64,000 nt of DNA, from sequence record NC_052660.1; one strand, given 5' to 3'. The notes beneath the pieces were generated by a model. It saw only the letters and a program-made list of their open reading frames with translations, was not told where the DNA came from and made no database searches. Each line of letters opens with the position of its first letter. The first letter of the stretch is position 1. Positions 4,239 through 28,228 of the stretch are shown here, piece after piece. This stretch comes from Escherichia phage tuntematon. A program made the position numbers and the translations under genes.

Positions 4239-4251
4239 CTTAGGAGGTTTC

Positions 4252-4443
4252 ATGGTTACATATTTTGCTGTAGGAGATAGAGTAGGGACGGCAGGAGAAC
4301 TTTTGAAGAACAGTGATCGGGACGTTAAGGACATTCTTGCAACCCTTGTGGATATTTTACAAAGAAAAGAGTTGCTTTCTGATCGAGATGTTGCTAAATT
4401 ACTTGATATCGGAGGAGATGAACTTCAAAGACTTCCATTTTAA
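4252..4443 (+). CDS. hypothetical small protein
   Basis: ATG at 4252 after TAGGAGG; same frame as track ORF 4219-4443. Confidence 0.35.
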   Translation: MVTYFAVGDRVGTAGELLKNSDRDVKDILATLVDILQRKELLSDRDVAKLLDIGGDELQRLPF

Positions 4444-19897: not shown

Positions 19898-21676
19898 GTG
19901 TCGCACATTATAACTAAATATGGATTTGATGTTGATCTTAGCAAGGAAGGGCATACAGGTTGTCCGCGCTGCATGAAAAATGGCAAGGATCGCTCTCGTA
20001 ATAACCTGATGGTTTATGGATTAGATTCTAATGGAGAGCATAAAGGTGCTAAGTGCTTTGCGTGTGAATACACTATTCCTAGCGTAGAATGGTTACGAGA
20101 AAATGGTGAAGTTTTAGAAGAAGAGGAGGAGATTGTGGGTTCGGAATTTAATAAACAGATTCATCGTAAAATTGTTCAAGAAACATCAACCAACCCACGT
20201 GGTTATCGAGGCATTAAAGAAAAAGTTTCATCTTTCTATGGTGTTCGTTATGAATACCGTCAGGAAGGGGATCAGATGGTAGTAGAAAGTTGTTTATATC
20301 CAACTACTATCGGTAAAGAGTTGGTTGGTTTTAAGCGTCGTATTCATCCTAAAGATTTCAGTAAACCTATTGGTCAAGTAGGTAAAGATGTAGATCTTTT
20401 TGGACAAATTCGTTTTGCAGACCGTTCTCATACTGTGGTAATTACAGGTGGTGAACACGATGCTCTGGCAGCTTATCAAATGCTGTCTGAAAACTTGGAC
20501 AACAAATATGAACTTCCAGCAGTAGTTAGTGGCACAACTGGTGAAACCAGTATGTATAAACAAGTTCAGGCACAATATCCTTTCTTTGAAAAATTTAAGA
20601 AGATTATTGTTTGCATGGATAATGACAAAGCTGGTAATGAGGCATTTGAAAATATTGTTAAGGTGCTGCCTCGTAACAAAGTCTACCGTATGCAGATGGA
20701 TCTTAAGGATGCCAATCAGTATCTGGAAGAAGGTCGTGCAAAAGATTTCGTAAAAGCTTTTTGGAGTGCTCGTCTATACACCCCAGCAGGTGTTTATGCT
20801 TCTAATGTCTTGTATGAAGCTGCATTAGAATGCTTGGAATCCAAGATGATTACCTTGCCTCCTTTTATGCGTGTTGCTGCAAATATGCTGGGTGGTGGTT
20901 TAGTAGAGGAAGAGATTACAGTTATCCTGGCAAAGACCAGTATCGGTAAAACTTTGATGGTGAACGAGATCACCAAACATATTATTGTTGCGCACCCAGA
21001 ACATACCCTAGGTATTCTGTCCTTGGAAGCAACTTATAAGAAATATTCTCGTAACCTGTTGTCCTCGTTCCTGCATATTCCTCTACACAGGAAAACACCG
21101 GAAGAGAAATTTCAAATCTTGGAAGAGAATAAAGAAAAAATCCTAGATTTTTACGAAAGAGAAGATGGATCACCACGTTTTTATGTGTGTGATGATCGTG
21201 GAGCAGATGTGGAGTCTATCAAAGAAAAAGTTTTGGAGATGATCATCTATTTTGGAGTAACAATTCTTGTTATCGACCCTTATTCTGATTTGCTTTCTGG
21301 TATGGATGTTCAAGCCCAGGAAGAGTTAGCAACATGGTTGAAGCGCATCATGAAAGAGTATGCTATAACCATTATCGTCATCTCACACGTTAAGAAGTCG
21401 GCTAATGGTGGCAATGAACACTTAACAGAGGACGATGCAATGGGTAGTAGTTTCTTGGCTAAAGGTGCTGGTATTACCTTGGCTTTGGAACGAGATAAAG
21501 CCGCTGAAGACCCTGTAGAACGCAATACGACTCATTGCTTTATCCTAAAAAACCGTGAGTTCTCGGAAACTGGTCCGGCAGGGCAGTTTTACTATGACAT
21601 TAGAACTGCAACTCTGCATGACAAAGAGCAGTATTTCAACAATCCTGCTAATTTGCCTACGGATAGCAACTATTAA
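19898..21676 (+). CDS. bifunctional primase-helicase (T7 gp4-like)
   Basis: GTG start after AGGAG; N-terminal Cys4 zinc ribbon (CPRC...CFAC), central TOPRIM-like region, C-terminal DnaB-like helicase with Walker A (AKTSIGKT) and Walker B (ILVIDPYSD). Confidence 0.85.
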   Translation: MSHIITKYGFDVDLSKEGHTGCPRCMKNGKDRSRNNLMVYGLDSNGEHKGAKCFACEYTIPSVEWLRENGEVLEEEEEIVGSEFNKQIHRKIVQETSTNPRGYRGIKEKVSSFYGVRYEYRQEGDQMVVESCLYPTTIGKELVGFKRRIHPKDFSKPIGQVGKDVDLFGQIRFADRSHTVVITGGEHDALAAYQMLSENLDNKYELPAVVSGTTGETSMYKQVQAQYPFFEKFKKIIVCMDNDKAGNEAFENIVKVLPRNKVYRMQMDLKDANQYLEEGRAKDFVKAFWSARLYTPAGVYASNVLYEAALECLESKMITLPPFMRVAANMLGGGLVEEEITVILAKTSIGKTLMVNEITKHIIVAHPEHTLGILSLEATYKKYSRNLLSSFLHIPLHRKTPEEKFQILEENKEKILDFYEREDGSPRFYVCDDRGADVESIKEKVLEMIIYFGVTILVIDPYSDLLSGMDVQAQEELATWLKRIMKEYAITIIVISHVKKSANGGNEHLTEDDAMGSSFLAKGAGITLALERDKAAEDPVERNTTHCFILKNREFSETGPAGQFYYDIRTATLHDKEQYFNNPANLPTDSNY

Positions 21677-22209: not shown

Positions 22210-23004
22210 TTGAGCAAGTTGAATACACTTGATCAATATTACACTAACCCCGCTTATGCGGGGTTCTTATGTGATAAGATCAAAGAAATTTTTGGAGAGG
22301 AAGCTAACTACGTAGAACCATCTGCGGGAGAAGGAGCTTTCTCTTTTTGTTTTAAAAACATAACTTCTTTTGATATTGACCCTAAGTTTGAAGATTGTAT
22401 TGAGGCAGATTTTTTAGCTCAATCTGTTGAGTCTGTTGGCAGTGTAACTGCTTTTGTCGGTAATCCTCCGTTTGGAAAAAATGCCAGTCTTGCCATTAAG
22501 TTCTTTAACCATTGTGCTGAAATGTTGGATAACGAAGGTGGTATTTGTTTTATCTTGCCTCGCACATTTCAAAAAATCTTTTTTGCACACAAACTAAATC
22601 CCCACATGCATCTTCTTTACGAAGAAGAATGTCCAAAAGGATCTTTTATTCTTCATGGAGAACCTTGGGATGTTCCTTGTGTATTCCAGATATGGATTAA
22701 ACGCAACGAGAAGCGTTCTCCCGTTGTTTTAGGAGAGAATCGACTGTTCGTATTAGGTAACAGTAAAGACTACGATATAGCCGTTAGGAGAGCGGGAGCA
22801 AGTGCAGGTAAAGTGTTATCAGAAGAAGATTCTTTATCTGAAGCATCTACCTACTTTTTAAAAGCCTTGACTTCTGATCTTAAAACACGTATCATTGAGG
22901 CTTACCCGTTACTTAAAGCTGAAGCTAGTAAAACTGCGGGAGTAAGAAGTTTAAGTTTAAAAGAACTTCAGTGGGTTCTGGAGAACATTAGAAAGGAGGA
23001 ATAG
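22210..23004 (+). CDS. N6-adenine DNA methyltransferase
   Basis: TTG start after AAGGAGG; motif I (VEPSAGEGAF) followed by catalytic NPPF (VGNPPFG). Confidence 0.8.
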   Translation: MSKLNTLDQYYTNPAYAGFLCDKIKEIFGEEANYVEPSAGEGAFSFCFKNITSFDIDPKFEDCIEADFLAQSVESVGSVTAFVGNPPFGKNASLAIKFFNHCAEMLDNEGGICFILPRTFQKIFFAHKLNPHMHLLYEEECPKGSFILHGEPWDVPCVFQIWIKRNEKRSPVVLGENRLFVLGNSKDYDIAVRRAGASAGKVLSEEDSLSEASTYFLKALTSDLKTRIIEAYPLLKAEASKTAGVRSLSLKELQWVLENIRKEE

Positions 23005-25601
23005 TGAGTAAGTTTACATGGGATATTGAAGCAAACGGATTGTTGAATAATGACACTATTGATTATTTAGCTAGTCCTTATCGTCTCAAAGACACATTTC
23101 AAATGCACTGTATTGTCTTAGAGAACCATGAAACAGGAGAAATAGTAGCTTTCCACGATGGCCCTAAATACATCTTTGATGGGCGTCCTTATGAAGAGTC
23201 AGATGGTAAATACACATATGTTCTTAAAGAGTATGTGGCGCAAGATTACACACATTTTCAACTAAAAGATTTCCCAGATTTTATTAATCATGAAGGTTAT
23301 TTTAAAGACAAGCCTGAATATCTGGTTGAAATGGCTGTGGCTCACAACGGTATCAACTACGACTGGTTGGCTACAAAACTGTTTTATGGATTAGATTACA
23401 GTGTTAAATATAATACGTGGGGCAAAAATAAGGTAAAACTTATTGACTCCTTGATTTTGAGTAAAGTGTTAAACCCAGATCGAAAGATTGAGGGCAAATC
23501 AGGACATAGCTTGGCAGCACTTTCTCGAAAAGCAGGTGGTGATGTAAAAATAGATTTCCGTAAAGAGATTCCAGAAGAAGATCGATTTAAGACTTTTGCT
23601 GCGGATATGCTTTATTACTGTATCTATGACAACAAAGCCAATACGAGCGTATATAATTACCTTATGGAAGAATGGGGTGATTATGATAAATGGGAAGGTC
23701 CATTTGAACTTGAACAACGTGTAGCAGACATTATTACACGTCAGGAACACCGTGGATTTGCTTTTAACATGAAACAAGCAGAAGAGAACCTTGCTTTTTT
23801 GGATGCAGAAATGGAGCGTCTTCGTTTACTCGTTGAGCCTATTTTGCCACCTAAACCAGCAACAAAAGGTTATCTTAAGGCTTTTATTCCACCTAAGTTG
23901 CAAATTAAAAAGAACTTAGAGCCAACTAACCATATGATCAATTTTGCTAAGAAACATGATGGTCATTTGGAAGAGAGGGATGGCGATTGGTGGTTAGTTA
24001 TGTTGGGGAAAGAGTGGAAACTGCCAGTTGCAGCAGATGAACCTCTATGTGATCCTAACATTCCTGCAACATTGAACGATACAACCCATATTAAAAACTG
24101 GCTTGTAGGATTAGGTTGGGTACCATCTGAATATAAAGATAAAGACTTGACTCTTAAATCTGGCACCAAGATTAAAAAGAGCGAGGAAGAACTTCAGAAA
24201 GGTATTCGAGCTTACGTTGAGCAAACTCTATCTTCTAATTTTTGTCAGGATCGTTGTGATCATCTGGAGTGCACACCGGAAACCCTGGAAAGGAAGATTC
24301 AAGAGCGTATAGCAAAAGGTAAAGGTCGCGGTCTTAAAGTATTGACTAACCCATGTTTTACCAAAGGTCAGGAAAAAGAAATTTGTCCTAACCTGCAAGC
24401 TTTGGGTGAGAAGTTTCCTTATGCTACACAGATTGTAGAATACTTAACGTATAAGCATCGTAGGAACTCTATTTTAGGTGGCGGTGCTGATTGGGAAGAA
24501 GATGAAGAAGATCAAGAATACGATAAAGGTTTCTTAGCCGCAGTAAGGGCGGATGGGCGTATTCCTACCCCAGCCGCTACATGTGATGCTGCAACCTCTC
24601 GTATGAAGCATAGATCTGTAGCTAATATTCCTCGTGTCACATCTTTGTTTGGATGGGAGATGCGTAACTTGTTTGGTGTAGAGGTTCCTAAATACTTCCA
24701 GATCGGCTACGATTTCGACTCTTTGGAAGCAAAAATTGAATCACACTACTGTTGGCGGTACGAGCCGGAGCCACACGAATATTGTAACGCTCTGTTGTTA
24801 GAGAAACCTAACGATGTTCACACAATGATGGCAAAACGTATCACTGAAACTATTGGACGTAAATTTGAACGTAGTCCTGCTAAATCTGTTAAGTATGGTA
24901 TTACCTATGGTGCACAAGCCGACAAGGTTGCTAAAACAATTGGTAGCGATAAGTTTACAGGTCAATTGGTGTTTGATGCTTTCTGGGAAGCTGCATTCCC
25001 ATTGGCGCGTCTTAAAGAACGTTTAAACGATTTCTGGGTTAAGACTGGTAAACAATATGTTTTGGGTATTGACGGTCGTAAGGTTCCTACTCGTTCTGCT
25101 CACGCGATTCTTAACTCTCTATTCCAAAGCGGCGGGGTTATCTGTGCTAAACGTGCAATGGTTATTTATGACGACATGATCGAAGAAGAAGGGCTAAGTG
25201 TTGACTTCTTTAAAGATGACTGGAAGAATAAAGACTTCGTGCAACAAATGATCGCATATCACGATGAAGCCCAGCTTGAAGTTTCTCGTAACCTTGTAGA
25301 ATTTAAATGGTTTTCACCTGAATCATTAGGTTGGAAGAAAGTAGACGATCCTGAAGAACAAAAGAAAATTGATAAAGAATGCCTTGCTAAAGTTGAAGAA
25401 TGGAAGCATAATAAGGAAAAAGAGACGGGACAAATTTGGGCTAACATTCATGAATCTCCCAAAGGTGGATGGTTTACAGCCTATAGTCGGGCAGGTGAAC
25501 TTGCTGCTTTAGCTGTTACTAAGGCTGGAGAATTTTACAATCTTAATGTTCAGCTTACTGCCGGATATGATGTGGGTAACTCCTGGGCGTCCTGTCACTA
25601 G
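23004..25601 (+). CDS. DNA polymerase, family A, with 3'-5' exonuclease domain
   Basis: 865 aa; Exo I (FTWDIEANGL); Pol A motif A-like (DFDSLEAKI), motif B (RSPAKSVKYGITYGA) and motif C (AYHDEAQLEV). Confidence 0.88.
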   Translation: MSKFTWDIEANGLLNNDTIDYLASPYRLKDTFQMHCIVLENHETGEIVAFHDGPKYIFDGRPYEESDGKYTYVLKEYVAQDYTHFQLKDFPDFINHEGYFKDKPEYLVEMAVAHNGINYDWLATKLFYGLDYSVKYNTWGKNKVKLIDSLILSKVLNPDRKIEGKSGHSLAALSRKAGGDVKIDFRKEIPEEDRFKTFAADMLYYCIYDNKANTSVYNYLMEEWGDYDKWEGPFELEQRVADIITRQEHRGFAFNMKQAEENLAFLDAEMERLRLLVEPILPPKPATKGYLKAFIPPKLQIKKNLEPTNHMINFAKKHDGHLEERDGDWWLVMLGKEWKLPVAADEPLCDPNIPATLNDTTHIKNWLVGLGWVPSEYKDKDLTLKSGTKIKKSEEELQKGIRAYVEQTLSSNFCQDRCDHLECTPETLERKIQERIAKGKGRGLKVLTNPCFTKGQEKEICPNLQALGEKFPYATQIVEYLTYKHRRNSILGGGADWEEDEEDQEYDKGFLAAVRADGRIPTPAATCDAATSRMKHRSVANIPRVTSLFGWEMRNLFGVEVPKYFQIGYDFDSLEAKIESHYCWRYEPEPHEYCNALLLEKPNDVHTMMAKRITETIGRKFERSPAKSVKYGITYGAQADKVAKTIGSDKFTGQLVFDAFWEAAFPLARLKERLNDFWVKTGKQYVLGIDGRKVPTRSAHAILNSLFQSGGVICAKRAMVIYDDMIEEEGLSVDFFKDDWKNKDFVQQMIAYHDEAQLEVSRNLVEFKWFSPESLGWKKVDDPEEQKKIDKECLAKVEEWKHNKEKETGQIWANIHESPKGGWFTAYSRAGELAALAVTKAGEFYNLNVQLTAGYDVGNSWASCH

Positions 25602-25618
25602 TTAACTCATTGTTTTAT

Positions 25619-25640
25619 AAGGGGCTTCTGCCCCTTTATA
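25619..25640 (+). terminator. terminator-like hairpin after the DNA polymerase gene
   Basis: AAGGGGC-ttct-GCCCCTT followed by TATA; U-tract weak. Confidence 0.45.
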
Positions 25641-25649
25641 GGAGGAGAT

Positions 25650-26018: not shown

Positions 26019-26237
26019 ATGCGTAAACTAGTGAGCTTTAATGTTTCAATTCTTATTGATGAACAAAATGAAGATGTTATTAAAGGTCTTGCAAATAAGA
26101 TTGCAGGTGGAATGACGGAAGCTGAAGTGTGGGAAGAATGTGCTCGACTTTATGAGGAAGGTGTTATTGAGGTCTTGGGGGATGAGATTAATATGGACGA
26201 TGTTGTAAAAGTAACTGTGGAGCGTATCAATGACTAA
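26019..26237 (+). CDS. hypothetical small acidic protein
   Basis: 72 aa ORF with AAGGAG RBS. Confidence 0.4.
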   Translation: MRKLVSFNVSILIDEQNEDVIKGLANKIAGGMTEAEVWEECARLYEEGVIEVLGDEINMDDVVKVTVERIND

Positions 26238-26823
26238 ATCAAAACAAATCAATATTGCCAAAGAAATTCTTACCGTATTAAAGATCGCTGATCCTAATTC
26301 TGTCTTGGCTGGCGGTGCTGTTCGTGATTGGCGTATTCTTGATATTGCTGGACGTGATCTGGATTTCTATACATCCCTTCCTGCACATCGGACTGAAGAA
26401 CAAATACAAGGATTAATTGCATCTGCTTTAATGGGAACCAATATTCGTAAACTAGGAAACAAAGAGGCTTCTGACAATTATGAAGGTGTTACTGGTCTTA
26501 AACACGTTTTTGAGTTTGAACGTGATGGTCAGCTTTGCAACCTTATGATTATGGAACCAAGCGTAATGACAACCTTTCTAAATGAGTTCGATCTGTCCAT
26601 CTGCCAGGCTGCATTTGATGGGAAGGACTGTTATTATTCTAAAGATTTTGAAACAACCTTGGAAACAGGGATCTGCTTCTTGCACAAAGATGTTAGAGAA
26701 GATGCCAAACACGTTATTAAAATTGCTACACGTTTCCCATATCTTCGTTTTGTGAAAGAGGTTAAGGTTCCACGTCCACCTCAAGTAGATACCAGATTGG
26801 AAGAAGATGATATTCCTTGGTAA
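26230..26823 (+). CDS. pol-beta superfamily nucleotidyltransferase (tRNA CCA-adding / poly(A) polymerase head-domain-like)
   Basis: LAGGAVRDWRILDIAGRDLDFY matches the GGAVRD...DxD signature of tRNA nucleotidyltransferase head domains; only 197 aa (no HD domain); C-terminus EEDDIPW. Confidence 0.55.
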   Translation: MTKSKQINIAKEILTVLKIADPNSVLAGGAVRDWRILDIAGRDLDFYTSLPAHRTEEQIQGLIASALMGTNIRKLGNKEASDNYEGVTGLKHVFEFERDGQLCNLMIMEPSVMTTFLNEFDLSICQAAFDGKDCYYSKDFETTLETGICFLHKDVREDAKHVIKIATRFPYLRFVKEVKVPRPPQVDTRLEEDDIPW

Positions 26824-26868
26824 TTAAAGCTTGACAATATTAAACATTTTATGATAGGATAGCATTCA

Positions 26869-27261
26869 ATGACTGAACGTTCTAAGATAGCTGTTGAAAC
26901 TGTTTATGGAAACTATACCAGTTTGACACTAGTTGAGAAAAATGTTGTAGGTCTTGACAACTCTTTTTATTTTCAAATTTTGGTTATTCAAGGTGGAAAC
27001 AAGAAGCTAACTGCTCGTGTTGAAACATCTGAAATAATTGAAACCACTGTTACAAACAAAGAATTCATTTCACTGCAAGATACAATCCGAAACGTTATAG
27101 ACGAAGAAGGCAAAGCTGCCACAATTAAACTCGGAGGTTTCCCAGTGCAAATAGTTCATTTTCCTAATGGTGAAATTGGAGTTGGAATAGGTAAAGGTAA
27201 ATACCTGTTAGAGCAAGATGATATGGAAAGACTCCGCTCTTTCTGTGCAAAATTAATGTAA
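26869..27261 (+). CDS. hypothetical protein
   Basis: 130 aa ORF after a TTGACA-containing promoter-like stretch (26831-26860). Confidence 0.45.
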   Translation: MTERSKIAVETVYGNYTSLTLVEKNVVGLDNSFYFQILVIQGGNKKLTARVETSEIIETTVTNKEFISLQDTIRNVIDEEGKAATIKLGGFPVQIVHFPNGEIGVGIGKGKYLLEQDDMERLRSFCAKLM

Positions 27262-27277
27262 TGTAGAGGAGATAATA

Positions 27278-28165
27278 ATGTCCGTAATTAATACTGAAAC
27301 TGATCGTAAAGGCAAAACTGTAACTTATGCAACTGGTATCGTAGACTACGTTAAACTGGATAAATTCGCTGAACCTAAAACTTTTCATTGGGAAGGAAAA
27401 ACGATTGTTTCAACTCACCGAGCTTCTCTTGTTCTGAAAGAGAAAGGTGCTAAACCAGATGAGAAAGGTGTTTGGATTTCTCTTGGTGACATTGAACTGA
27501 AAGAAGGTTATGAAAACCTACAAGTCAAAGAAGGTGATAACTGGATCACTATTGAAAAAGGTGTAGAAGTAAGTATTGATATTGATCGCGTTGATAATAA
27601 AGGCGGTAAAACTTACTACAATACTAAAAAATCTCGTATTACAGTATTGTCTACCGATGGTGTTCAGAAGTCTAACAAATCTTCTGGCAATAAGGGGTCC
27701 AACGATGCGGCTCCTAAACAATCCTATAAAAAACGTGATACTGTAGGTCTGGAAACTGGTCACGCAGTAAATGGTGCACTGGAACTGATTCGTAATGGTG
27801 TTAAAGGTGATGCTTTCGATATCGCTGGGGTTGTTCAATCTGCAACTGTCACACTGAAATCGGAAATTGCTGAATCTCGTGGCGTTGATATTAATGATTA
27901 TGATCTTGGGGCATCTGTTGGTCACGCTATCCTCAATGCTTGTAAAGACCATACCATTAAGACTGTATCTGTAGAAGATCTGATTGATTCTGCTCGTAAA
28001 GTTCTGGCTCTGTCTGATAAAGTTGCTGCTGCCATTCGTGGTTCCGCAGAACAACCTAAGAAAGAAGAGAAGAAAGAAGTTAAGAAACCTGAACCACAAC
28101 CAGAACCAACTCCAAGTAATCAAGAAGAACCTCCAATGGACTTCGACGATGATATTCCATTCTGA
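27278..28165 (+). CDS. single-stranded DNA-binding protein-like, with SSB-type acidic C-terminal tip
   Basis: Last residues EEPPMDFDDDIPF reproduce the canonical bacterial SSB tip (PPMDFDDDIPF); Pro/Glu/Lys-rich linker precedes it; N-terminal domain not recognisable by eye. Confidence 0.6.
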   Translation: MSVINTETDRKGKTVTYATGIVDYVKLDKFAEPKTFHWEGKTIVSTHRASLVLKEKGAKPDEKGVWISLGDIELKEGYENLQVKEGDNWITIEKGVEVSIDIDRVDNKGGKTYYNTKKSRITVLSTDGVQKSNKSSGNKGSNDAAPKQSYKKRDTVGLETGHAVNGALELIRNGVKGDAFDIAGVVQSATVTLKSEIAESRGVDINDYDLGASVGHAILNACKDHTIKTVSVEDLIDSARKVLALSDKVAAAIRGSAEQPKKEEKKEVKKPEPQPEPTPSNQEEPPMDFDDDIPF

Positions 28166-28189: not shown

Positions 28190-28228
28190 TATAAAAGAAA
28201 GGAGCCATTTGGCTCCTTTTCTTATTTA
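28190..28228. terminator. bidirectional rho-independent terminator at the convergence of the two arms
   Basis: AAAGGAGCC-attt-GGCTCCTTT hairpin flanked by T-runs on both strands, between the + strand SSB-like gene and the - strand fibre gene. Confidence 0.7.

What the first reader, a model, noticed from the sequence alone, without database searches (positions are those of the whole stretch)
26230..28165. Two phage proteins end in bacterial SSB-type C-terminal tips (PPMDFDDDIPF and EEDDIPW)
The 295-aa protein at 27278-28165 ends with EEPPMDFDDDIPF; its last eleven residues match the canonical bacterial SSB tip that recruits many host DNA-metabolism proteins, while its N-terminal domain is not host-SSB-like. 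The nucleotidyltransferase-like protein at 26230-26823 ends with a similar acidic/aromatic tip (LEEDDIPW). Inference: the phage SSB may hijack the host SSB interactome, and the second protein may use an SSB-tip mimic to dock onto the same partners or compete for them. The exact match to the host-type tip also points to a host whose SSB ends in DDDIPF.
Basis: partly seen in the sequence, partly recalled or inferred. Interest (0 to 1): 0.6.

Follow-up and report, generated by a model that had tools for sequence, protein, structure and literature searches.

The report
Phage SSB and nucleotidyltransferase share SSB tip
An E. coli phage's own single-stranded-DNA-binding protein ends in the host SSB's docking peptide, and a neighbouring small nucleotidyltransferase carries a near-copy of it, so both probably plug into the same partner proteins; the first part has already been proposed for a related phage, the second appears to be new.

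Summary
The window is a Phapecoctavirus, a phAPEC8-like E. coli myovirus.

**SSB-like protein (27278-28165).** It belongs to an uncharacterised phage family, phrog_4477.
- Predicted architecture: OB fold, four-helix domain, disordered linker, and a tail whose last 12 residues (EPPMDFDDDIPF) are identical to E. coli SSB.
- All 120 family representatives, down to about 30% identity, keep the tip.
- It is the only SSB candidate in the genome.
- A homologue, Bas52_0087, was described in an April 2026 preprint as an SSB-like trigger of the DRT10 defence system. That preprint noted the same tip and a link to ExoI/SbcB, so this half is largely anticipated but still untested biochemically.

**Nucleotidyltransferase (26230-26823).** It is a small Pol-beta-type enzyme with an intact catalytic signature. 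Relatives match Pfam "Gad2" (anti-Gabija).
- Its ...DDIPW tail is kept in 10 of 11 members of its clade (59-98% identity to the window protein; one has DDSFPW) while the linker varies.
- The tail is absent from more distant relatives. It looks like a lineage-specific docking motif, and I found no prior description.

Only these two ORFs in a 146-kb genome carry the motif (about 0.01 expected by chance). Which partners they bind, host or phage, is inferred and not shown.

**Noticed in passing.** Many phage SSBs, including canonical ones, carry a conserved 13-17-residue "cap" after DDDIPF, which would bury the terminal Phe.

The parts
27278..28165 (+). Gene for the 295-aa SSB-like protein (phrog_4477 / Bas52_0087 family)
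   Evidence: ORF and translation. phrog_4477 E=2.7e-97. 137 homologues. BLASTP to Bas52_0087 gives E=9e-16 and 8e-13. Annotated 'single-stranded DNA-binding protein' in a few relatives.
27278..27661 (+). N-terminal all-beta domain (aa 1-128), a predicted OB fold and the presumed ssDNA-binding domain
27737..28039 (+). Four-helix domain (aa 154-254), the most conserved globular part and a putative oligomerisation module
   Evidence: AF2 helices 156-172, 179-201, 208-223 and 232-253, pLDDT above 90. Near-invariant D154, G157, G161, H162, A163, T190, K194, G211, V214, G215, A217. The DRT10 escape substitutions of Bas52_0087, D252V and Y351C, align to D154 and A250.
28040..28129 (+). Disordered K/E/P-rich linker (aa 255-284)
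   Evidence: pLDDT 41-68. Lowest conservation in the family.
28130..28162 (+). SSB-Ct-type tip PPMDFDDDIPF, followed directly by the stop codon (28163-28165), so the tip is uncapped
   Evidence: 12 C-terminal residues identical to E. coli SSB. This is the most conserved block of the family, mean column identity 0.91. Present in 120 of 120 representatives.
26230..26823 (+). Gene for the 197-aa small Pol-beta-type nucleotidyltransferase
26308..26367 (+). NTase catalytic signature AGGAVRDWRILDIAGRDLDF (aa 27-46)
   Evidence: Matches hG[GS]x9-13Dh[DE]h. A27, G28, G29, R32, W34, D43 and D45 are invariant in 34 diverse family members.
26803..26820 (+). NTase C-terminal SSB-tip-like motif EDDIPW
   Evidence: DDIPW is kept in 10 of 11 clade members (the window protein plus homologues at 59-98% identity; one has DDSFPW) while the preceding linker varies in length and sequence. 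Absent in relatives at or below 38% identity.
26869..27261 (+). Conserved 130-aa protein of unknown function between the NTase and the SSB. Part of the syntenic cassette polA-(HNH)-NTase-130aa-SSB.
   Evidence: phrog_16560 E=1.1e-76, no Pfam hit. Same position in KP2025, EmilieFrey, L007 and L008.
28197..28220 (.). Bidirectional intrinsic-terminator-like hairpin between the SSB gene and the convergent tail gene
   Evidence: Sequence GAAAGGAGCCATTTGGCTCCTTTT followed by a T-rich tract on both strands.
23004..25601 (+). Context: family-A DNA polymerase of the phage replication module, a candidate phage partner for the tips
   Evidence: PF00476 E=1.4e-13, phrog_17 E=2.7e-111. A primase/helicase lies upstream at 19898-21676 by synteny with SF1-1 gp235.

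Best explanation
[quoted passage not shown] It has one OB fold for ssDNA, a four-helix domain that probably mediates oligomerisation, and a flexible linker. It ends in a free C-terminal peptide identical to the host SSB's protein-docking tip. On ssDNA at phage replication forks it would display many copies of this tip. Those copies could recruit or titrate proteins with an SSB-Ct pocket: host enzymes such as exonuclease I, and possibly the phage's own T7-like replisome proteins. The neighbouring 197-aa protein is a catalytically competent minimal Pol-beta-type nucleotidyltransferase. In the Phapecoctavirus lineage it has acquired a tethered near-copy of that tip (DDIPW) on a short flexible tail. 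This short linear motif most likely lets the enzyme occupy the same docking pockets as the SSB tip. That would bring its nucleotidyl-transfer activity to, or let it compete at, sites of ssDNA processing. Shown here: sequence features, conservation, predicted folds, synteny, and homology to Bas52_0087. Inferred: ssDNA binding, the oligomerisation role, the identity of the tip partners, and the NTase substrate.
For: - Exact ORFs and tails.
- The motif occurs in only these 2 of 1,445 ORFs of a complete relative genome, against 0.011 expected.
- The tip is present in 120 of 120 family representatives and is the most conserved block.
- 12 residues are identical to E. coli SSB, but the DNA is only 78-86% identical over 43-48 nt. 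The identity is therefore maintained by selection and is not a recent transfer.
- A confident AF2 model gives an OB fold matching SSB, RPA and PriB.
- There is no other SSB in the genome. An E. coli-type SSB query hits only this gene's tail.
- The gene lies in the replication module downstream of primase/helicase and PolA.
- The homologue Bas52_0087 is required to trigger DRT10, a system restrained by the SSB-Ct-binding exonuclease SbcB. Its escape mutations map to the helical domain.
- NTase: invariant catalytic signature, Pol-beta NTase fold, DDIPW conserved behind a variable linker, and recurrent acidic/aromatic tails elsewhere in the family such as ...NDFPW...PDDIPW and ...EEFEF.
- Precedent: the T7 gp2.5 and gp4 tails share one site on the T7 polymerase.
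Against: - No experiment on any family member has tested ssDNA binding or the tip. The preprint tested neither.
- 17 of 120 family members, including the whole sister genus Justusliebigvirus, bury the tip under a conserved extension. That is hard to reconcile with canonical pocket binding, which needs the free Phe carboxylate.
- The NTase tip ends in Trp, not Phe. Its fit to SSB-Ct pockets is unknown.
- The NTase model has low confidence outside the core (pLDDT 61.9).
- The NTase tip is missing in sister lineages that keep the same gene cassette, so it is not essential to the enzyme's core function.
Confidence: 0.55

Rival explanations
1. The tips work only inside the phage replisome, as in T7. 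The SSB tail couples the SSB to the phage PolA and primase-helicase. The NTase tail docks the enzyme on the same phage protein. Host SSB-interacting proteins are irrelevant.
For: The phage encodes a T7-like set (family-A polymerase and gp4-like primase/helicase) immediately upstream. In T7 the tails of gp2.5 and gp4 bind the same polymerase site. Tails in the wider NTase family are of the generic acidic/aromatic kind (...EEFEF...ASFDF), not host-like.
Against: If only co-evolving phage partners were involved, the tail would be free to drift, as in T7. Instead 12 host-identical residues are held across a family that has diverged to about 30% identity. The homologue is genetically linked to a host pathway controlled by the SSB-Ct binder ExoI.
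Confidence: 0.25
2. The NTase is a Gad2-type anti-defence enzyme. The SSB-like tip targets it to a host immune sensor or effector that monitors SSB or ssDNA, for example helicase-nuclease systems. It may instead let it compete with the phage SSB tip so that SSB-sensing defences are not triggered.
For: Relatives of the NTase carry precomputed Pfam PF26128 'Gad2' hits: P0129 at 60% identity, the Justusliebigvirus orthologue, and 16 of 58 profile hits. Gad2 is a predicted NTase that blocks Gabija by an unknown mechanism. Several defence systems sense phage SSBs, and the homologous SSB triggers DRT10. The tip is lineage-specific, as expected for an arms-race adaptation.
Against: The window protein itself could not be scored against PF26128, because the local Pfam copy returns no such model. 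tblastn finds no SPbeta-type Gad2. Gad2 is about 400 aa and this protein is 197 aa. The gene's position inside a conserved replication cassette suggests a housekeeping replication or repair role. No functional data exist.
Confidence: 0.15
3. The acidic tips act mainly as ssDNA mimics. They fold back onto the OB-fold DNA-binding cleft of the phage SSB (autoinhibition). The NTase tip binds that same cleft, so the NTase rides on or regulates free SSB and does not share external partners with it.
For: This behaviour is established for the E. coli SSB and T7 gp2.5 tails (background knowledge; the AF2 gp2.5 model in the paper read has the tail bound in the positive groove). The tails are strongly acidic: net charge -4 for the last 11 residues.
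Against: Charge mimicry would not require the exact I-P-[FW] terminus, or 12 host-identical residues, to be conserved. The OB domain here is near neutral.
Confidence: 0.1
4. The NTase tail is a fortuitous or neutral resemblance with no docking function.
For: It is only 5-6 residues long, ends in W rather than F, and is absent from relatives at or below 38% identity that keep the same cassette.
Against: Chance expectation is about 0.01 per genome, and the protein lies 454 nt upstream of the SSB gene. DDIPW is retained in 10 of 11 clade members (59-98% identity to the window protein; one DDSFPW) while the linker before it changes length and sequence. Independent ...PDDIPW and ...NDFPW tails occur in distant family members.
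Confidence: 0.07

Closest known systems
Bas52_0087 of Escherichia phage RudolfGeigy (Bas52, Vequintavirinae), the SSB-like trigger of the DRT10/UG17 defence system (bioRxiv 10.64898/2026.04.29.721553)
   Same: It is homologous: BLASTP E=8e-13 for the OB domain and 9e-16 for the helical domain plus tail. It has the same order of OB fold, helical domain, disordered region and ...FDDDIPF tip. The same hypothesis was voiced by its authors, that the tip engages host SSB partners such as SbcB. DRT10 also restricts Stephanstirmvirinae, this phage's subfamily.
   Different: Bas52_0087 has 408 aa with a second OB-like domain of about 90-100 residues that the window protein lacks. Overall identity is only about 30%. 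Triggering of DRT10 by the window protein is untested. The preprint does not report a neighbouring NTase with a tip.
E. coli SSB and canonical phage or plasmid SSBs (Pfam PF00436; for example P1 SSB and lambdoid SSBs) with the SSB-Ct tip
   Same: OB fold, disordered linker and acidic tip. The last 12 residues are identical to E. coli SSB. Many phage SSBs carry the same 11-residue tip.
   Different: There is no detectable sequence similarity outside the tail: no PF00436 hit, and the PDB profile search aligns the tail only. There is an additional four-helix domain. The linker is K/E/P-rich rather than G/Q/P-rich. The oligomeric state is unknown.
Bacteriophage T7 gp2.5 (SSB) and gp4 (helicase-primase) acidic C-terminal tails ending in Phe
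   Same: Two different phage replication proteins carry similar acidic, aromatic-terminated tails that bind one site on a common partner, the T7 DNA polymerase (and background knowledge of Richardson-lab work). This is the best precedent for an SSB plus a second protein sharing a tip.
Gad2 (Gabija anti-defence 2; Pfam PF26128), a predicted nucleotidyltransferase of SPbeta-like phages
   Same: Phage-encoded Pol-beta-type NTase domain. Relatives of the window NTase carry precomputed PF26128 hits. The substrate and mechanism are unknown for both.
   Different: Gad2 is about 400 aa and from Bacillus phages. The window protein is 197 aa, sits in a replication cassette and has an SSB-like tip. No direct sequence hit to SPbeta phages. 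Anti-Gabija activity is untested.
MenT-type and class II CCA-adding / poly(A) polymerase head-domain nucleotidyltransferases
   Different: PF01743 scores 13.9 bits against a cutoff of 23. The neck, body and tail domains needed for tRNA binding are absent. No antitoxin relationship has been shown.

Membership tests
Phage SSB-like family phrog_4477 / Bas52_0087 | Significant sequence homology over the OB and helical domains | tested here: met
   phrog_4477 E=2.7e-97. BLASTP to Bas52_0087 E=8e-13 and 9e-16. 137 homologues.
Phage SSB-like family phrog_4477 / Bas52_0087 | C-terminal disordered region ending in the (F)DDDIPF tip | tested here: met
   (120 of 120 representatives).
Phage SSB-like family phrog_4477 / Bas52_0087 | Two OB-fold domains, as described for Bas52_0087 | tested here: not met
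   The window protein has one beta domain. The 90-100-residue middle domain of the 370-425-aa members is absent. It is a short-form member.
Phage SSB-like family phrog_4477 / Bas52_0087 | Triggers the DRT10 defence system during infection | not testable with these tools
   Only the literature statement that DRT10 restricts Stephanstirmvirinae is available.
Canonical bacterial SSB (Pfam PF00436) | Sequence match of the OB domain to the SSB profile | tested here: not met
   No PF00436 hit at E<=0.1. The PDB profile search and tblastn with an E. coli-type SSB align only the tail.
Canonical bacterial SSB (Pfam PF00436) | OB fold | tested here: met
Canonical bacterial SSB (Pfam PF00436) | ssDNA binding and homotetramer formation | not testable with these tools
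   No assay is available. The extra helical domain suggests a different oligomerisation mode.
SSB-Ct docking motif (acidic residues + I/L-P-F with a free C-terminal carboxylate) | D-D-D-I-P-F at the very C-terminus | tested here: met
   For the SSB-like protein, the stop codon directly follows F295.
SSB-Ct docking motif (acidic residues + I/L-P-F with a free C-terminal carboxylate) | The same motif on the NTase | tested here: inconclusive
   E-D-D-I-P-W: acidic run, I-P and a terminal aromatic are present, but Trp replaces Phe. Pocket compatibility is unknown.
SSB-Ct docking motif (acidic residues + I/L-P-F with a free C-terminal carboxylate) | Binding to SSB-Ct pockets of partner proteins | not testable with these tools
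   No complex prediction or binding assay is available.
Pol-beta superfamily nucleotidyltransferase | Signature hG[GS]x9-13Dh[DE]h with conserved carboxylates | tested here: met
   AGGAVRDWRILDIAGRDLDF at aa 27-46. G28, G29, D43 and D45 are invariant in 34 members.
Pol-beta superfamily nucleotidyltransferase | Alpha/beta NTase core fold | tested here: met
Class II CCA-adding enzyme / poly(A) polymerase (PF01743) | Head-domain profile match above the gathering threshold, plus neck/body/tail domains | tested here: not met
   PF01743 gives 13.9 bits against a cutoff of 23, E=0.07. The protein has only 197 aa and no further domains.
Gad2 (PF26128) | Profile match to PF26128 | tested here: inconclusive
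   Precomputed hits exist for relatives: P0129 at 60% identity, the L007 orthologue, and 16 of 58 profile hits. The local Pfam copy returned no such model for the window protein. tblastn found no SPbeta Gad2.
Gad2 (PF26128) | Inhibits Gabija defence | not testable with these tools
   Requires infection assays.

The most novel reading that the evidence does not exclude
The DDIPW-tipped nucleotidyltransferase is an enzymatic effector that uses mimicry of the SSB docking tip to reach the hubs of the host SSB interactome, or SSB-sensing immune complexes. There it modifies a nucleic-acid end or a protein, for example to blunt exonuclease or defence activity. This would be the first case of an enzyme delivered by SSB-tip mimicry, and a possible clue to the unknown mechanism of Gad2-family anti-defence NTases. 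In the same vein, the conserved 13-17-residue cap found after DDDIPF in many phage SSBs would be a switch that hides the tip from host partners or sensors.
Probability: 0.15. Interest if true: 0.8.

Novelty: new variant of a known kind. Interest (0 to 1): 0.55.

Why it matters
The SSB C-terminal tip is the central docking hub of bacterial DNA metabolism, and several anti-phage systems sense phage SSBs.

- A phage SSB of an unrelated sequence family holds 12 host-identical residues over deep divergence. This argues that host partners, not only phage ones, constrain it. It also gives a defined handle (tip deletion) for testing how DRT10-type systems are triggered.
- A second, enzymatic protein with a conserved near-copy of the tip suggests that the motif is a transferable address label that phages can attach to other activities. 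If confirmed, it extends the SSB interactome concept to phage effectors. It could also help with the Gad2-family NTases, whose mechanism is unknown.
- The capped tips noticed in passing are present in about 5% of complete E. coli genomes. They question the assumption that every annotated phage or prophage SSB exposes a functional SSB-Ct.

Tried and rejected
1. **Recent capture of the tail from the host ssb gene: rejected.** The 3' end is only 78-86% identical over 43-48 nt to E. coli, plasmid or prophage ssb genes (E 0.02-1), and the tip is ancient in the family.
2. **Membership of the canonical SSB family: rejected on sequence**.
3. **NTase as a bona fide CCA-adding enzyme: rejected.** The score is below the Pfam threshold and the tRNA-binding domains are missing.
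4. **The post-DDDIPF extension in relatives as simple read-through into an inserted HNH gene.** This was my first reading and I rejected it. The extension occurs without any HNH gene in L007/EmilieFrey, L010, mEpX2, CP-1639 and K290. Its codons also differ synonymously between loci.
5. **The extension as a beta-clamp-binding or PIP-like motif.** Inspection by eye finds no fit to QL[SD]LF / Qxx[LIM]xx[FY][FY]. I did not pursue this further.
6. **Direct test of Gad2 membership: failed.** The local Pfam copy has no PF26128 hit for any of 13 members. The paper gives no accession for phage SPbetaL7. tblastn does not reach SPbeta phages.
8. **A third candidate tip.** The ORF ending at window 4443 (...DELQRLPF) lacks the acidic run and is compatible with chance.
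9. **Literature search for phage proteins that mimic the SSB-Ct: nothing relevant found**.
Full report
**1. The observation**

ORF 27278-28165 (+) encodes 295 aa ending ...PSNQEEPPMDFDDDIPF*. ORF 26230-26823 (+) encodes 197 aa ending ...DTRLEEDDIPW*. A profile of the 295-aa family, searched against all PDB sequences, aligns only its tail, to E. coli SSB (1eqq ...SNEPPMDFDDDIPF). The identical C-terminal stretch is 12 residues, EPPMDFDDDIPF.

I scanned every stop-to-stop ORF of at least 40 aa. That is 572 in the window and 1,445 in the complete genome of the 98.7%-identical Shigella phage SF1-1. Only these two end in acidic-acidic-[ILV]-P-[FW]. Amino-acid frequencies predict about 0.011 such ORFs per genome. 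The start of the SSB-like gene is 454 nt downstream of the NTase stop codon.

**2. What the window is**

The region is 95-99% identical to about 63 phAPEC8-like phages (genus Phapecoctavirus, subfamily Stephanstirmvirinae) that infect E. coli and Shigella. The two genes close a long plus-strand block of nucleotide-metabolism and replication genes. The order is primase/helicase, methyltransferase, family-A DNA polymerase, three small ORFs, NTase, a conserved 130-aa protein, and the SSB-like protein. A bidirectional terminator follows, then convergent tail-fibre genes. The cassette polA-(HNH/AP2)-NTase-130aa-SSB is conserved in related genera and metagenomic relatives.

**3. The 295-aa protein**

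- *Sequence classification.* It has no Pfam domain and belongs to PHROG 4477, 'unknown function' (E=2.7e-97). Only its last ~45 residues match SSB PHROGs.
- *Predicted structure.* With a 68-sequence alignment, AlphaFold2 gives a confident model (mean pLDDT 82.8). It has an all-beta domain (aa 1-125), a disordered basic linker, a four-helix domain (156-253) and a disordered tail.
- *Only SSB candidate.* An E. coli-type SSB query finds nothing else in the phage genome. A few GenBank records already label the gene 'single-stranded DNA-binding protein'.
- *Tip conservation.* Across 120 cluster representatives, down to about 30% identity, every one carries the tip: 103 at the very C-terminus and 17 followed by an extension (see section 7). 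The tip is the most conserved block of the protein (mean column identity 0.91), while the linker before it is the least conserved.
- *Not a recent transfer.* The tip-coding DNA is only 78-86% identical over 43-48 nt to E. coli, plasmid or prophage ssb genes. The identity is therefore maintained by selection on the peptide.

**4. Prior knowledge on this family**

A bioRxiv preprint of 30 April 2026 (10.64898/2026.04.29.721553) identified Bas52_0087 of the Vequintavirinae phage Bas52 as the factor needed to trigger the DRT10 (UG17) reverse-transcriptase defence system. From AlphaFold and Phold, the authors describe it as SSB-like, with two OB folds and a disordered C-terminus ending in FDDDIPF.

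They note that host exonuclease SbcB/ExoI, a classical SSB-tip partner, restrains DRT10. They propose that the phage protein competes with SbcB. They did not test ssDNA binding or the tip.

I located bas52_0087 (MZ501102) and confirmed that it is homologous to the window protein: E=8e-13 for the OB domain and 9e-16 for the helical domain plus tail. Bas52_0087 has an extra middle domain of about 90-100 residues that the window protein lacks. The two published escape substitutions map to the helical domain. D252 aligns with D154, which is near-invariant in the family. Y351 aligns with A250 in the last helix. This fits the authors' idea of an oligomerisation interface.

DRT10 also restricts Stephanstirmvirinae. 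It remains unproven.

**5. The 197-aa protein**

- *Enzyme class.* It carries the Pol-beta NTase signature (AGGAVRDWRILDIAGRDLDF). G28, G29, D43 and D45 are invariant in 34 diverse relatives, so it is probably an active enzyme.
- *Not a CCA-adding enzyme.* PF01743 scores 13.9 bits against a cutoff of 23, and there are no tRNA-binding domains.
- *Family size.* An exhaustive profile search finds 3,856 representatives, mostly standalone proteins of 190-220 aa.
- *Gad2 link.* Several relatives carry a precomputed Pfam PF26128 'Gad2' hit. They include one at 60% identity and the Justusliebigvirus orthologue. Gad2 is a predicted NTase that neutralises the Gabija defence by an unknown mechanism. I could not score the window protein itself against that model, so membership is open.

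**6. The NTase tail**

In the 11 members of the Phapecoctavirus-type clade (the window protein plus homologues at 59-98% identity to it), the last residues are DDIPW in 10 and DDSFPW in one. The 10-15 residues before them vary in sequence and length. This is the pattern of a functional short linear motif on a flexible tether.

The tail is absent from more distant orthologues that occupy the same cassette: Justusliebigvirus ...NSEEFKI, Klebsiella phage KP2025 ...NAWDDL, and Vibrio phages.

Elsewhere in the family, acidic/aromatic ends recur sporadically...NFPDDIPW...SNDFPW...EEFEF...ASFDF. About 10 of the top 150 representatives have one. The tip is therefore a lineage-specific acquisition, and tails of this general kind have arisen repeatedly on this enzyme.

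**7. Mechanism, and what is inferred**

*Shown:* the sequences, their conservation, the predicted folds, synteny and homology.

*Inferred:*
- (a) The 295-aa protein coats ssDNA at phage forks and oligomerises through its helical domain.
- (b) Its tips recruit or titrate proteins with SSB-Ct pockets.
- (c) The NTase tail occupies the same pockets, which brings or competes an enzymatic activity there.

The argument for host partners is that 12 host-identical residues are held constant across a family that has otherwise diverged to 30% identity. That is expected if the constraint comes from proteins that do not co-evolve with the phage.

The argument for phage partners is the T7 precedent. In T7, the acidic Phe-terminated tails of gp2.5 and gp4 use one site on the polymerase (plus background knowledge). 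This phage has an analogous PolA and primase-helicase next door. The two are not exclusive. For the NTase I cannot discriminate between them.

The Trp terminus, invariant in the clade, may indicate a preference for a particular pocket.

**8. A complication noticed on the way: capped tips**

Seventeen of the 120 family representatives continue after ...DDDIPF with a 13-17-residue extension. Examples are APIGLQYGRNFLHCF, APVGLQYARHAISALYA and APIGLQYRELLYAM. They include the entire sister genus Justusliebigvirus (for example BASEL phage Bas61), some Phapecoctavirus, and some Vequintavirus (Bas49, CM1).

In a 99%-identical relative, an HNH endonuclease gene begins inside the extension. I first took the extension for read-through into a mobile element. 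That reading fails for three reasons:
- The extension also occurs with no HNH gene nearby.
- Its codons differ at synonymous positions between loci while the peptide is kept.
- It also follows the tip of canonical E. coli-type SSBs of unrelated phages: lambdoid mEpX2 ...DDDIPFAPVTLPFPRHAIHAI, CP-1639, and Vibrio phage K290 ...DDDIPFAPIGLQYPAIVHCM.

220 phage records cover at least 80% of a 26-aa tip-plus-cap query. The mEpX2-type capped ssb 3' end is present in 299 of 5,426 complete E. coli genomes.

From background knowledge, canonical SSB-Ct recognition uses the free carboxylate of the terminal Phe. A cap should therefore mask or alter docking. I found no description of this feature. Its function is unknown, and I did not test any of these ideas: a regulated or hidden tip, a different partner, a degron-like end, or a link with homing of one HNH family at the conserved tip-coding DNA. 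The window's own gene is uncapped, because the stop codon directly follows F295.

**9. Verdict**

The SSB half is a new, short-form member of a family whose SSB-like nature and host-type tip were pointed out in a 2026 preprint. Host-type tips on phage SSBs are in any case common.

The NTase half, a conserved and lineage-specific near-copy of the SSB tip on a small Gad2-family-like nucleotidyltransferase encoded next to the SSB, appears to be undescribed. It is the more interesting part. Its closest precedent is the shared tails of T7 gp2.5 and gp4.

Overall this is a new variant of a known kind, of moderate interest, with clear experiments that could raise or sink it.

Noticed in passing
Related loci: L002 4886-4933; L007 3401-3448; L008, L009, L010 (3' ends of the SSB-like genes); L012 3526-4473 (Bas61 EmilieFrey bas61_0038); L015 1375-1881 (mEpX2 SSB); L016 1315-1878 (Vibrio phage K290 SSB); L017 1369-1881 (CP-1639 SSB); L018 601-1872 (CM1); L022 301-1572 (Bas49). 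Not present in the window (stop at 28163-28165).: A 'capped' SSB tip. A conserved 13-17-aa extension, AP[IV][GT]L[QP][YF]...H-x-[ILFMV], directly follows ...DDDIPF in 17 of 120 members of this family and also in canonical E. coli-type SSBs of lambdoid and Vibrio phages. Codons differ synonymously between loci, so the peptide is under purifying selection. 220 phage records and 299 of 5,426 complete E. coli genomes carry it. It would bury the terminal Phe carboxylate. I found no description in the literature searched.
   Followed up: partly
L002 4905-5399; L008 3468-3896; L009 3671-4213; L018 1844-2467 (CM1 'endonuclease VII'); L022 1544-> (bas49_0090 'putative homing endonuclease'); L021 1536-> (bas58_0089): One family of HNH homing endonucleases (N-terminus ...C-x-KCG-x-x-K-x-L-x-EFYKH...DGH-x-NKCKEC) sits immediately after, or overlapping, the 3' end of the SSB-like gene in several lineages. 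It usually occurs together with the capped tip, but once follows an uncapped one (Bas58). The identical 15-aa cap in a Phapecoctavirus (L002) and in Justusliebigvirus, whose SSB bodies are only 64% identical, suggests exchange of the 3' end. One possible route is homing at the conserved tip-coding DNA.
   Followed up: partly
window 25602-25649, compared with L001 5064-5642 (SF1-1 gp239): The close relative SF1-1 has a 579-nt HNH endonuclease gene inserted between polA and the next small ORF. The window has only a 48-nt spacer there. This is another presence/absence polymorphism of a homing endonuclease in the replication module.
   Followed up: no
window 26869-27261: A conserved 130-aa protein of unknown function (phrog_16560, no Pfam hit) always lies between the NTase and the SSB-like gene across genera. 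The NTase's best structural match is the toxin MenT1, and Gad2 of SPbetaL7 was reported as toxic. The small neighbour could therefore be a partner or regulator of the NTase, but this was not tested.
   Followed up: no
window ~4250-4443 (+), equal to SF1-1 gp204: A small ORF after the anaerobic ribonucleotide reductase genes ends in ...GGDELQRLPF. It has an L-P-F terminus without the acidic run. About 0.6 such x-P-[FWY] ends are expected by chance in the window, so it is probably fortuitous.
   Followed up: partly
window 26831-26860 (+): A sigma-70-like promoter match (TTGACA-18-TAGGAT with a TG extension, 10 of 12) lies in the 45-nt gap between the NTase and the 130-aa gene. The total number of such matches in the region is not above the shuffled expectation.
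   Followed up: no
Database records seen: Near-identical Phapecoctavirus or Justusliebigvirus genomes are deposited as 'Campylobacter phage B15/A150', 'Acinetobacter phage vB_AbaM_ABPW7' and 'Pseudomonas phage PsgM04F'. One family member (P0063) is labelled 'Cystoviridae sp.' in NCBI. These host and taxon labels are probably wrong (contaminant or mis-binned sequences).
   Followed up: no
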